From a virus (lineage: Duplodnaviria > Heunggongvirae > Uroviricota > Caudoviricetes), in the IMG/VR virus record IMGVR_UViG_2802429224_000008, positions 1 to 12,738 of that record: 12,738 nt of DNA. One strand, written 5' to 3'. Position 1 is the stretch's first letter. Every line of letters starts with the position of its first letter. This document shows, piece by piece, positions 6,001 through 9,000 of this stretch. The position numbers are program-made.

Positions 6001-9000
6001 AGCATGTTTTTTACGTGCTGATGTTCCAGCCTGAAAGCGAAGAAGATTAATTTTTTCTCGCGTGTAGGGTGAAAATTTTGCGGGTTATGCGGGTTATTTC
6101 TGTGGATAAATCAGTATCCATATGATTATTAAAGGAATGACAGGAAAATCGTAACCCGCAAAATACCCAAAATAACCCGCAAAACGGCAGTTATAACCCG
6201 CAAAAGTGCGATTATAACCCGCAGAATTTCACAGTAAGGGTGTAAACAAGCGTAACTATCAACGTTAAAACCGGAGAGCAGACAGCATGACAGCACAGAT
6301 AGCGGCTTACGGGCGGCTGGTGGCTGACCCGCAGTTAAAGACCACCAGCAAGGGGACACAAATGGCGATGGCGAGTATGGCGGTTCCCCTGCCGTGCAGC
6401 CAGGCAGATGACGGAACGGCGACGATGTGGTTATCCGTCCTGGCGTTTGGCAGACAGGCCGACGCACTGGCAAAGCACCAGAAAGGCGAACTGGTGAGCG
6501 TGGCGGGTAACATGCAGGTAAGCCAGTGGACAGGTCAGAACGGCGAAACGCGGCAGGGCTGGCAGGTTATCGCAGACAGCGTAATCAGTGCGCGGACGGC
6601 GCGACCGGGCGGCAAAAAAGGCCAGCAGGGCCAGGCTACTGACGCACTGAACAGGGCGAAACAACAGACAGGCCAGCACGATGACCCGTACGGGGATAAC
6701 ATACCGTTTTAATTCACAGCAGCGAACAGAGTAATTACAGGGGAAGGCATGACAAAGCTGACCATTAACCGAAAACCGAAAGGCATTTACGGCACGCCGC
6801 AGAAAACGACGCAGGCGGCACAGCAGCAGGATAAAACCACGTCGGCGCATAAAGTGATGCCCGATAATCAGAACGCACAGCAGAGCCGCAAACAGAAGCC
6901 CACTGGGGTGACACCGTGGCGGCATATGACCAAACGCCAGCGCAAAAACCGCAGACGCGTTAACCGCCTCACTGAGTTGTGGCCTGACTTATTCAGCCGG
7001 GAAGCACCGAAGCCGCTTAAGGTGGGGATATTCGACGACCTGATGCAGGATCTCGCCGTCAGGGGGCTGGCATTCGGGCCAGGGGCATTACGTGCGACGC
7101 TGGCATCTTATGCGCAGTCTCCGCGCTATTACCGCGCCTTAATGGCTGGTGGTGCACGTTACGACCTGAAAGGCCAGCCATGTGGAGATGTGACACCACA
7201 GGAACAACAGGACGCAGAAACGCGGCTGATGATGCTGAATGAGAAGCGCAAGCATCAGGCGGCAAAGGAGAAGACAGGCGCATGATTCGTGACAGCAAAG
7301 CGGAAGAACTGGAGACTAAAGGCCTGTACCGGAGAGCGGCGGCGCGGTGGGCTGAGGTCATGCAGCTGGTGAACACCGATAAGGAGCGCGAACAGGTGGC
7401 AAAGTGTCGCGCGGAATGCATCCGTAAGGCAGCACGCCCACCTGTTATGGCGGATAACTTCGGGGCACTGAAAGAGGCTGTAAACCGCACTCATGCGGTG
7501 ATGGGGATGGAAGACGCGGGTAAATCCGTCTGGCGGAACTACCCGAAGCAGCCTGGCAGTAACCAGTGATGCCGGATATTATCCTGAAAAATGACCATCA
7601 CTCCCGTGGGCGGATAATATAAAATCCCGCATATGCGCACATACACAGACGAAGCCGGAACACTCCGGCTTTTTTTACGGGTCCTCCTGATGGGGTACCC
7701 TTACCGCGGGGCGACGGACGCGCGGGAATCGCCAAATTTTCGCATTTTTATCGGTCATCACCACCAGCGCAATTTATTGATAATGAAGGTTAAAAAAATT
7801 CCTGGTGTCGAAAACGCCTGTTTTTTGTTCATCACTGAATCATGCGCATCATGATACCAGGATACCCGGTATTGCTGCGTGATAACCCACAGGGCTGGTG
7901 ACGATGCGTTATGGTCTGTGCGTTGCCATCCTCCTGACCTGATGGCATTATCCGGCATGAACGAGCGGTTATTCTCCGTACTCTTAATCGTTGTTCATGG
8001 TTATTTGCTTTGTGGTAGCTGACATTTCCTGATGGCTTTTATCCTTCCGCCCCGTAATCACGGGGTATTTTTTTATCTGTGATTTGTTGTTCTTCGCTGT
8101 GTTGGTATGGGGAGTTCTGGCAATGATTCAGGCCGTCGCTTTCCTGGTACGTGATTTTTTACGTTCATTATTGTGCTGGTGGTAGTGTCACGGCACGTCA
8201 CGATATGTCACTATCACGTCACGCTGATGGCAAAAGCCAGGGTTAACCAGTACCGGAACGGGTAGCCCGATGTATTGTTACCGTCCTGCCGGCTGGTGGA
8301 GTAATTGATAACGGTTATCATCAACGGGAGGGGAGGATCAAATCCCTGTAGTCCTGGCCGTCCGGGACCGCCCGCCAACCCTTCTTCGCATCGCCGCAGG
8401 TTCGAAAACTTTTTTTGGGAAGGTGCGCACAGAGTTGATAGATAAAACCTATCAGAAGAAGTAGCATCAAACCCGCGCCATTGCTGGCATCGTTAAAAAA
8501 ACTCACTCCACCAGCAGGCCAAAAAACCGTGATTTTTCCGGTTTTATGGGCTGAAAAGGGTCTCCCTAAAAAACACCTCTCACACTGTCGGAGGGGATGG
8601 ATAATTTTCACGGGTCCTTTCCGGAGGTCTGAATACCGGGGGTACGGGTACGCGCAATTCTCAACTGTTTATGAAAATTTTTCGGGAAAAGTCAGATCCG
8701 TTCTTCTTCTCTGTAACTCATTGTTTAATCGTAAAATCATCAAAAAAAGAAAGGATCTGACAGTGGTCATTCTGGGCTAAAAATGACGTTATCAGATCCT
8801 TTCTCAGTTTTGTTCAATAATTGCGCGGCTGTCACTCACCTTTCTGTTGCCGTAATTTCTCCGGCACGTTTCCGGTTGTTTCCATCAGGTAGTCCTTCAG
8901 AATGCGGGGCAGGTTATCGGCAGTTTTAGCGCACGCATTACAGACGCGTGCTGTTTCTTTCCTCAGGCCCTCGATCATTGCCGGAGTCATCGCGGGGAAC

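What the first reader, a model, noticed from the sequence alone, without database searches (positions are those of the whole stretch)
8187..8222. Four GTCAC motifs phased at one helical turn, 390 bp upstream of cos1
TGTCAC / CACGTCAC / TGTCAC / CACGTCAC at 10-11 bp intervals places four sites on one face of the helix, typical of a cooperative protein-binding array. It sits just after a small SD-preceded ORF and between the PerC-like gene and cos1; another TGTCAC occurs at 8830-8835 at the far edge of cos1. Candidate binders are the Nu1-like protein, the RHH protein or a helper-phage factor.
Basis: seen in the sequence. Interest (0 to 1): 0.5.

Follow-up and report, generated by a model that had tools for sequence, protein, structure and literature searches.

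The report
Helper-phage replication iterons inside a satellite
The four phased GTCAC repeats are real and conserved, and they match the replication-origin repeats (iterons) of a very common family of E. coli lambdoid prophages, so this phage satellite appears to carry a binding array for its helper's replication initiator right next to a copy of that helper's packaging (cos) site.

Summary
Observation confirmed. GTCAC occurs at 8187, 8197, 8207 and 8218 on the + strand, spaced 10/10/11. This is far beyond chance.

The window is an E. coli PICI-type phage satellite. The array survives in related islands. Its 20 core positions are invariant in 13 distinct sequence rows, while 8 of 16 spacer positions vary. 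One island that lacks terS shows decay of the cores.

The same pattern hits more than 119 viral contigs. Almost all hits lie inside one gene, the "phage replisome organizer" initiator of lambdoid phages. Each such gene has two same-strand arrays. The second array is followed by AT-rich (AGATAA)n repeats, an origin-inside-the-initiator-gene layout like lambda O/ori. A distant homologue in Ralstonia phage Firinga keeps the layout but uses a GCAACG core.

The island encodes no such initiator. Its own origin is at 6073-6229. Its array has no AT-rich element beside it. About 80 bp downstream lies a copy of the HNH-terS intergenic cos region, and four sequenced phages with that cos type also carry this initiator.

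Best reading: captured helper iterons that bind the helper initiator in trans. A decoy or handcuffing role is most likely, and a helper-fired origin less likely. Binding by the Nu1-like or RHH protein is not supported. No binding has been tested.

The parts
8187..8223 (+). Array of four direct repeats: GTCACGGCAC / GTCACGATAT / GTCACTATCAC / GTCACG. Extended unit consensus is R-Y-GTCAC-G-A, with spacing 10/10/11.
   Evidence: Searches give position and significance. Searches show conservation in related islands. Searches show the same core, spacing and extended consensus as the arrays in phage replisome-organizer genes.
8175..8182 (+). Chi site (GCTGGTGG) 4 nt upstream of the first unit. Homology with several other island alleles begins here, so it marks the left edge of the array/cos module.
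   Evidence: It is mutated to GCTGTTGG in the L147/L152/L153 alleles, so it is less constrained than the GTCAC cores.
8292..8299 (+). Second Chi site, same orientation, between the array and the HK97-type cos module.
   Evidence: It is mutated in L150 and L153.
8303..8452 (+). Copy of the whole HNH-terS intergenic region (cos site) of HK97-like lambdoid phages. It always accompanies the array in the islands.
   Evidence: One search shows the alignment runs up to the phage terS start codon. The phiP27 feature annotated 'cos-site' and the right end of mEp235 also match this region.
6073..6229 (.). The island's own replication origin: GCGGGTTAT / ATAACCCGC iterons in two inverted sets around an AT-rich core, directly 3' of the DUF927 replicase gene. 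Listed to show that the GTCAC array is not the cognate origin.
   Evidence: The layout is as described for Gram-negative PICIs in PMC6092414.
8124..8186 (+). 20-codon ORF that ends at the array. It is not conserved and is probably not a gene.

Best explanation
The array is a set of four iterons of the replication origin used by a widespread family of lambdoid phages whose initiator NCBI calls 'phage replisome organizer'.

The satellite has no such initiator. It keeps the iterons in non-coding DNA about 80 bp upstream of a captured copy of the cos site found in phages of the same kind. When such a phage is induced or infects, its initiator is predicted to bind cooperatively to the four sites on one face of the helix.

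The island array lacks the AT-rich (AGATAA)n unwinding element that follows the origin-proper array in the phages. The most likely consequence is therefore titration or handcuffing of the helper initiator. That is an incompatibility-like brake on helper replication, and it would grow stronger as the satellite amplifies from its own origin.

Shown here: identity of core, phase and extended consensus with the phage arrays; restriction of such arrays to that gene family; co-variation of the repeat core with the initiator N-domain; conservation in the islands; absence of an initiator homologue and of an unwinding element in the island.

Inferred: that the phage arrays are iterons bound by the initiator, that the island array binds it, and what that binding does.
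For: - Distribution. Of these, 106 lie in 270-380 aa ORFs of one family, 9 more are truncated or frameshifted copies of that gene, 2 are islands of this family and 2 are other contexts.
- Identity of the gene. It sits at the O position after cro/cII-like genes. It matches PHROG 3729 'replication initiation protein' and is named 'phage replisome organizer' or 'DNA replication protein O'.
- Architecture. Every gene has two same-strand arrays. Array A has 4-6 units near nt 155, and array B has 3-9 units near nt 415, all at 10/11-bp spacing. In 90 of 95 genes, AGATA[AC] repeats directly follow a GTCAC unit; in the examples shown this is the last unit of array B. The 40 bp after B average 70% AT, against 48% after A.
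- DNA-level repeat. GTCAC falls in all three reading frames. The arrays encode a low-confidence loop and the disordered linker of the predicted protein.
- Co-variation. Ralstonia phage Firinga has an N-domain 38% identical. It keeps two 4-unit arrays at the same gene positions, but with core GCAACG. Initiators that share only the C-terminal domain have no GTCAC array.
- Exclusivity. In phage Evi the only phased GTCAC arrays in 40 kb are the two in this gene.
- Match beyond the core. The island unit consensus equals the phage one. Six of 12 island 10-mer units also occur among the 82 distinct phage units, and 25 of 26 nt match phage array B.
- Conservation. 0 of 20 core columns vary against 8 of 16 spacer columns in 13 distinct aligned rows of the 450-nt region, which hold 8 array alleles (Fisher p = 4e-4). 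One allele lost exactly one 10-bp unit.
- Independence from island genes. The array is independent of the island's replicase type (DUF927 or RepA helicase) and of its TerS type.
- No island binder. No island ORF resembles the initiator.
- Own origin elsewhere. The island's origin is at 6073-6229.
- Link to one phage type. Phages 689R5, 640R1, 813R8 and 606R7 carry both this initiator and the cos type copied at 8303-8452.
- Abundant partners. The initiator N-terminal region is present in 2078 of 5426 complete E. coli genomes.
- Precedent. Ectopic lambda ori copies block lambda replication. In one study this needed iterons ITN3-4 and oop transcription but not the AT-rich part (PMC4488673, PMC3349717).
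Against: - No experiment shows that the phage arrays are iterons or that the initiator binds GTCAC. I found no paper on this origin.
- The phage sample was collected with a pattern modelled on the island array, so core identity and 10/10/11 spacing in at least one array per gene are by construction. The second array, the AT-rich repeats and the Firinga co-variation are independent of that.
- The N-domain gave only sub-threshold HTH / Phage_rep_org_N hits. The fold search was not significant.
- Only about 9 array alleles are known, all from E. coli and phylogenetically related.
- One island (L151) has two G-to-A core mutations. Two lineages keep only three units. One cos-module copy in L159 lacks the array altogether.
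- Core conservation with variable spacers could partly reflect patchy recombination with the very common prophage arrays rather than selection in the island.
- Four iterons per island copy may be too few to titrate an initiator.
Confidence: 0.55

Rival explanations
1. Helper-fired auxiliary origin. The helper initiator binds the array and loads the host helicase there. The satellite, or the chromosome around it, is then replicated by the helper's machinery in addition to its own replicase. This could feed concatemers to the adjacent cos site.
For: The evidence for initiator binding is the same as above. The array is tightly linked to a cos copy from the same phage type and moves with it through inversions. 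Trans-replication through shared iterons is known for geminivirus components and satellites (own knowledge).
Against: There is no AT-rich unwinding element beside the array. The 40 bp downstream are 45% AT and carry no AGATAA repeats. The upstream sequence is replaced in half of the alleles. In the phages the AT-rich repeats follow array B in 90 of 95 genes, and the island array resembles the array that lacks them. The island already has a complete replicase and origin.
Confidence: 0.2
2. Functionless relic. A scrap of a prophage origin was picked up by recombination. It persists because it lies in a module (Chi - array - cos) that is inherited as a block, or is refreshed by conversion from resident prophages.
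For: Homology between island and phage does not extend beyond the array. Some alleles have lost a unit or the 3' part. L151 has mutated cores. One cos copy in L159 lacks the array, with the junction exactly at the array's edge. Prophages with such arrays are in 38% of genomes.
Against: The cores are invariant (0 of 20 columns) while the spacers vary at 50% and the flanks at 15%. The adjacent Chi sites do mutate. The unit loss preserves the phase. The only decayed array sits in an island that has also lost terS. A 36-bp interrupted homology is a poor substrate for repeated conversion.
Confidence: 0.13
3. Binding array for an island-encoded protein (Nu1-like small terminase, RHH/HicB-like protein, PerC, AlpA-type regulator or integrase arm domain).
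For: It is a phased direct-repeat array in the island's main non-coding region between PerC and terS.
Against: The array is conserved unchanged where terS is a DUF1441 protein instead of Nu1-like (L003). It is also conserved with either replicase type and in both orientations relative to the island backbone. It lies 390 bp on the wrong side of cosN for a cosB element. It is about 7 kb from int and from the island ends. Identical arrays occur in hundreds of phage genes that have none of these island proteins nearby.
Confidence: 0.05
4. Boxes for a host OmpR/PhoB-type response regulator. PhoB recognises TGTCA direct repeats and CreB recognises TTCAC-N6-TTCAC (own knowledge).
For: Same-strand direct repeats at one helical turn containing TGTCAC resemble pho-box half-sites (own knowledge; sequence).
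Against: Spacing is mostly 10 rather than 11, and the spacers are G+C-containing. No promoter-like site is adjacent. The arrays are confined to one phage gene family across Escherichia, Pseudomonas and Aeromonas phages. The core co-varies with the initiator N-domain in Firinga.
Confidence: 0.03

Closest known systems
Lambda ori iterons inside the O gene (O-some)
   Same: Direct repeats for the phage's own initiator are embedded in the initiator gene. They lie in the part that encodes an inter-domain linker and are followed by an AT-rich unwinding region. The GTCAC phage arrays have this layout.
   Different: The initiator family is different (replisome-organizer N-domain with a DnaT/DnaD-like C-domain). 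The units are 10-11 bp with a 5-6 bp core instead of 19-bp iterons. There are two arrays per gene. In the window the array sits outside any initiator gene, in a satellite, without the AT-rich part.
Iteron control loci of plasmids (P1 incA, F incC): titration or handcuffing (own knowledge)
   Same: These are extra iterons outside the origin that bind the initiator and restrain initiation or cause incompatibility. This is the proposed action of the island array on the helper.
   Different: Those loci act in cis or trans on their own replicon. Here the iterons would sit on a different element (the satellite) and act on a phage. None of this is tested.
Lambda 'inhibition phenotype' and ori decoys (PMC3349717, PMC4488673)
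   Same: Ectopic copies of phage origin iterons block replication of phages with the cognate initiator. In one study the AT-rich part was dispensable.
   Different: Those are laboratory plasmid constructs, and one of them also needs oop RNA transcription. The island array would be a natural example, with a different initiator family.
PICI replication origins (Fillol-Salom et al. 2018, PMC6092414)
   Same: Both are iteron arrays in a phage-inducible chromosomal island.
   Different: A PICI origin lies directly 3' of the island replicase and has two iteron sets flanking an AT-rich core. The window has exactly that at 6073-6229, with unrelated repeats (GCGGGTTAT). The GTCAC array is a second, foreign-type array 2 kb away.
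cosB R sites bound by gpNu1 (own knowledge of lambda)
   Same: Repeated protein-binding sites in the neighbourhood of a cos site.
   Different: R sites lie between cosN and Nu1, differ in sequence, and should track the terminase type. The array lies upstream of the cos modules and is independent of the TerS family.
Shared iterons of geminivirus DNA-B, defective DNAs and satellites trans-replicated by the helper Rep (own knowledge)
   Same: A dependent element carries the helper initiator's iterons.
   Different: Those are eukaryotic ssDNA viruses using rolling-circle Rep, and the iterons there form part of a complete origin.

Membership tests
Iterons of the GTCAC-type lambdoid 'replisome organizer' origin | Core GTCAC, usually GTCACG, with the extended consensus R-Y-GTCAC-G-A | tested here: met
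   All four units have GTCAC and three of four have GTCACG. The island logo equals the phage logo.
Iterons of the GTCAC-type lambdoid 'replisome organizer' origin | At least 3 same-strand direct repeats at 10-11 bp spacing | tested here: met
   The island has four units at 10/10/11. Phage arrays have 3-9 units, all spaced 10 or 11 bp.
Iterons of the GTCAC-type lambdoid 'replisome organizer' origin | Located inside the initiator gene, as one of two arrays about 230-260 bp apart | tested here: not met
   There is a single array in non-coding DNA. No initiator homologue is encoded in the window.
Iterons of the GTCAC-type lambdoid 'replisome organizer' origin | Origin-proper array followed by AT-rich (AGATAA/C)n repeats | tested here: not met
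   The repeats are absent from 8150-8330, and the 40 bp downstream are 45% AT. In phages the value is 70% after array B, with the repeats in 90 of 95 genes.
Iterons of the GTCAC-type lambdoid 'replisome organizer' origin | Specific binding by the cognate initiator | not testable with these tools
   The only support is comparative: core and N-domain co-vary in phage Firinga. The fold search on the initiator model was not significant.
PICI cognate replication origin | Directly 3' of the island replicase gene, with two iteron sets flanking an AT-rich core | tested here: not met
   That structure is at 6073-6229. The GTCAC array is 2.1 kb away and is kept with either DUF927 or RepA-helicase replicases.
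cosB / small-terminase binding sites | Lies between cosN and terS, and changes with the terminase family | tested here: not met
   The array is 389 bp upstream of cos1 and about 80 bp upstream of the HK97-type cos. It is unchanged with a Nu1-like or a DUF1441 TerS.
Integrase arm-type sites | Clustered near the ends of the element (attP arms) | tested here: not met
   The array lies about 7 kb from int, in the middle of a roughly 14-kb island.
Pho box / OmpR-family response-regulator boxes | 11-bp periodic direct repeats with A/T-rich spacers upstream of a regulated promoter | tested here: not met
   Spacing is 10/10/11 with G+C-containing spacers, and no promoter-like site is adjacent.

The most novel reading that the evidence does not exclude
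The satellite keeps helper-specific cis-element cassettes. In this one the helper's origin iterons are paired with the helper's cos site and bracketed by Chi sites. Through the iterons it engages the helper's replication initiator in trans. This would either throttle helper replication (a natural 'origin decoy', an interference mechanism not described for PICIs) or have the helper fire replication of the satellite. With 38% of complete E. coli genomes carrying this initiator type, it would be a common satellite-prophage interaction.
Probability: 0.4. Interest if true: 0.8.

Novelty: new variant of a known kind. Interest (0 to 1): 0.62.

Why it matters
Phage satellites are known to copy their helpers' cos or pac sites and to interfere with capsid assembly, packaging and late transcription. 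I found no report of a satellite that carries its helper's origin iterons.

If the array binds the helper initiator, it adds replication initiation to the list of helper functions that PICIs tap or sabotage. It would give a natural counterpart to the laboratory 'ori decoy' effect in lambda. It would also provide a sequence signature for predicting which prophages a given island exploits.

The work also points to the likely origin of a very common but apparently uncharacterised E. coli prophage replication module: two GTCAC arrays plus (AGATAA)n inside the replisome-organizer gene.

Tried and rejected
- Rfam at permissive threshold and tRNA scans of the window found nothing relevant near the array.
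- The promoter/terminator scan found no promoter-like site next to the array. There is only a terminator-like hairpin at 8049-8066 upstream.
- Array-independent anchors in IMG/VR and metagenomes gave only already-seen array alleles, plus the array-less copy in L159.
- Local alignment of the island region against the phage genes did not extend beyond the array. I therefore could not decide whether it derives from array A or array B.
- tblastn and profile searches of the initiator against all window ORFs found no homologue.
- AlphaFold gave a confident helical N-domain (residues about 10-80) and C-domain, but pTM was 0.30. The Foldseek PDB search was not significant; the top, non-significant hits were mostly HTH or winged-helix proteins.
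- Pfam hits of the N-domain to HTH_Crp_2 and Phage_rep_org_N fell below threshold.
- Literature searches for GTCAC iterons, for replisome-organizer origins in E. coli prophages, and for satellites carrying helper origins or Chi enrichment found nothing specific.
- I did not test whether island and prophage co-reside in the same genomes. With 2078 positive genomes and 60-row listings it could not be done.
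Full report
**1. The observation**

GTCAC occurs on the + strand at 8187, 8197, 8207 and 8218, with spacing 10, 10 and 11. The motif is not enriched in the window as a whole: 26 sites against 20.6 expected. Four same-strand copies in phase are expected about 2e-6 times. Only 2 of 500 Markov-simulated windows held any 5-mer in four or more phased copies.
- The distance to cos1 is 389 bp.
- A 20-codon ORF ends at the array.
- There is a TGTCAC at 8830.

The ORF is not conserved. The 8830 copy overlaps the stop codon of the Nu1-like gene and is a chance single copy.

**2. Context**

The window is a PICI-type phage satellite of E. coli. Its features are:

| Coordinates | Feature |
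|---|---|
| 1-1242 | integrase |
| 3616-3930 | DUF4222 |
| 3927-6050 | DUF927 replicase |
| 6287-6712 | SSB |
| 6749-7285 | ProQ/FinO |
| 7282-7569 | PerC |
| 7570-8830 | 1.26-kb non-coding stretch |
| 8832-9416 (minus) | Nu1-like small terminase |
| 9964-10782 | K88-type fimbrial gene |
| 12367 onward | second PerC gene |

The closest relative is an island in E. coli A36, inserted in yifB, with 95% identity over the non-coding region.

The island's own origin is at 6073-6229. It has GCGGGTTAT / ATAACCCGC iterons in two inverted sets around an AT-rich core, directly after the replicase gene. This is the layout published for Gram-negative PICIs (PMC6092414).

The non-coding stretch holds three different cos-like modules in the same orientation:
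- 7679-7780 resembles the right end of mEp460.
- 8303-8452 equals the whole HNH-terS intergenic region of HK97-like lambdoid phages. It also matches the annotated 'cos-site' of phiP27 and the right end of mEp235.
- 8611-8726 resembles the right ends of HK225 and mEp237.

The first and third modules have inverted second copies, at 11137-11238 and 9560-9635.

**3. Conservation in related islands**

The array was found in 28 of 5426 complete E. coli genomes, always together with the 8303-8452 module. It was also found in IMG/VR and metagenome contigs retrieved with anchors that do not include the array.

- In 13 distinct aligned rows of the 450-nt region (8 different array alleles), 0 of 20 core columns vary and 8 of 16 spacer columns vary (Fisher p = 4e-4).
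- For comparison, 35 of 230 flanking columns vary.
- The adjacent Chi sites do mutate in some alleles.
- One lineage lost exactly one 10-bp unit. Another lost the fourth unit plus 66 bp.

The array is the same in islands with a DUF927 or a RepA-helicase replicase, and with a Nu1-like or a DUF1441 small terminase. It occurs in both orientations relative to the island backbone.

There are two exceptions. L151 lacks terS nearby and has two G-to-A core mutations. In L159, one of two cos-module copies is joined to the PerC flank exactly at the 3' edge of the array and so lacks it.

**4. Where else the pattern occurs**

- 106 hits lie in ORFs of 270-380 aa belonging to one family.
- 9 more are truncated or frameshifted copies of that gene.
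- 2 are islands of this family.
- 2 are other contexts.

The gene follows cro/cII-like genes. It matches PHROG 3729 'replication initiation protein' and has a DnaT/DnaD-like C-terminal part. Depositors and NCBI name it 'DNA replication protein O' or 'phage replisome organizer'.

Each gene contains two same-strand arrays. Array A has 4-6 units near nt 155. Array B has 3-9 units near nt 415. All spacings are 10 or 11 bp. In 90 of 95 genes, AGATA[AC] repeats directly follow a GTCAC unit; in the examples shown this is the last unit of array B. The next 40 bp average 70% AT, against 48% after array A.

GTCAC falls in all three reading frames. The arrays encode a low-confidence loop and the disordered inter-domain linker of the predicted protein. 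This is the origin-inside-the-initiator-gene design known from lambda O/ori (own knowledge).

Two independent observations tie the repeats to the N-terminal domain:
- Ralstonia phage Firinga has an N-domain 38% identical. It has two 4-unit arrays at the same positions, but with core GCAACG.
- Initiators that share only the C-terminal domain have no GTCAC arrays.

In the 40-kb genome of phage Evi, the only phased GTCAC arrays are the two in this gene.

One caveat applies. The phage sample was collected with a pattern modelled on the island array, so the core and the 10/10/11 spacing of one array per gene are by construction. The second array, the AT-rich repeats and the Firinga result are not.

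**5. Island array compared with phage arrays**

The unit consensus is the same in both: R-Y-GTCAC-G-A. Six of 12 island 10-mer units occur among the 82 distinct phage units. The island matches phage array B at 25 of 26 nt.

Homology does not extend beyond the array. The island has no AGATAA repeats, and the 40 bp downstream are 45% AT. No island ORF resembles the initiator, by tblastn or by profile search.

**6. Link to a helper type**

In the phage collection the initiator N-domain occurs at 98% identity or more in 813R8, 640R1, Evi, 689R5, Tritos, 606R7 and 204576. The cos type copied at 8303-8452 occurs in phi467, 689R5, 606R7, 611R1, 569R6, 640R1, 716R1, 813R8, PhiR49_2 and 733R4.

Four phages have both. 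In 689R5 I checked both features directly. These four come from one study and may be close relatives. In the phage the two elements are about 11 kb apart, so the island did not acquire them as one piece.

The initiator N-terminal region is present in 2078 of 5426 complete E. coli genomes.

**7. Mechanism**

The best-supported reading is that the array is a captured set of helper-phage iterons. It would bind the helper's replisome-organizer initiator in trans.

It lacks the unwinding element and resembles the auxiliary array. The island also has its own replicase and origin. I therefore favour titration or handcuffing of the initiator, an incompatibility-like brake on helper replication. That effect would scale with satellite copy number. 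Precedents are plasmid iteron control loci (own knowledge) and the lambda ori-decoy and 'inhibition phenotype' experiments (PMC4488673, PMC3349717).

Rival readings:
- A helper-fired auxiliary origin is the main rival.
- A functionless relic is possible but fits the core/spacer contrast poorly.
- Binding by the Nu1-like, RHH, PerC or integrase proteins is not supported.
- Binding by a host response regulator is not supported.

None of the binding steps has been tested. I found no literature on this origin type or on satellites carrying helper iterons.

**8. Verdict**

The feature is real and conserved. It is best described as a new variant of a known kind: origin iterons placed on a satellite that lacks the cognate initiator, next to the matching cos site.

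Interest is moderate to high. It suggests a satellite-helper interaction at the level of replication initiation that has not been described, and it is directly testable with a few simple experiments.

Noticed in passing
window, whole length; e.g. 8175, 8292 (+), 8508 (-): There are 19 Chi sites (GCTGGTGG) in 12.7 kb against 0.54 expected from shuffles. The HK97-type cos at 8303-8452 has Chi(+) at 8292 on its left and Chi(-) at 8508 on its right. Each faces a RecBCD enzyme that would enter from a cut at that cos, which suggests protection of the packaged linear DNA ends.
   Followed up: partly
window 7679-7780, 8303-8452, 8611-8726; inverted copies at 11137-11238 and 9560-9635: Three different cos-like modules sit in one non-coding region. 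Each matches the genome end or the HNH-terS spacer of a different group of lambdoid phages, and two of them are present as inverted pairs. This looks like a toolbox for several helper types.
   Followed up: partly
window 7679-11238 and 8611-9635, compared with L001-L005: The segment between the outer inverted cos-like repeats, and the terS segment between the inner ones, occur in both orientations in related islands. All four PerC / array / terS arrangements were seen.
   Followed up: partly
window 6073-6229: The island's own origin: two GCGGGTTAT copies and about five ATAACCCGC copies in inverted sets around an AT-rich core, right after the DUF927 gene.
   Followed up: yes
window 1253-1290: Four phased direct repeats with core AACCA (AAAACCAGT / ACAACCAGT / CAAACCATG / TAAACCATC) lie immediately after the integrase stop codon. 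They may be recombination-directionality or integrase arm-type sites.
   Followed up: no
window 9964-10782: A lone K88-type (PF02432) fimbrial subunit gene is carried as cargo between cos2 and the right-hand inverted repeat. It is absent from L004, and other islands carry pyocin/immunity genes there.
   Followed up: no
window 11817-11920: A 52-nt tandem duplication (77% identity). Each copy contains an internal palindrome and ends in a Chi site.
   Followed up: no
L159 (food metagenome contig) 8166-8356 and 9954-10150: This contig has two inverted copies of the HK97-type cos module. One carries a 3-unit GTCAC array. The other is joined to the PerC 3' flank exactly at the 3' edge of where the array would be.
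   Followed up: partly
phage loci such as L009 1336-2412 and L168 1201-2271: A likely origin for a very common E. coli prophage replication module: two GTCAC iteron arrays plus (AGATAA)n inside the replisome-organizer gene. The module is present in 38% of complete genomes, and I found no description of it in the searchable literature.
   Followed up: partly
L156 (Ralstonia phage Firinga) 1324-1360 and 1595-1630: The distant initiator homologue has the same two-array layout but with core GCAACG. This is a clean case of iteron/initiator co-variation.
   Followed up: yes
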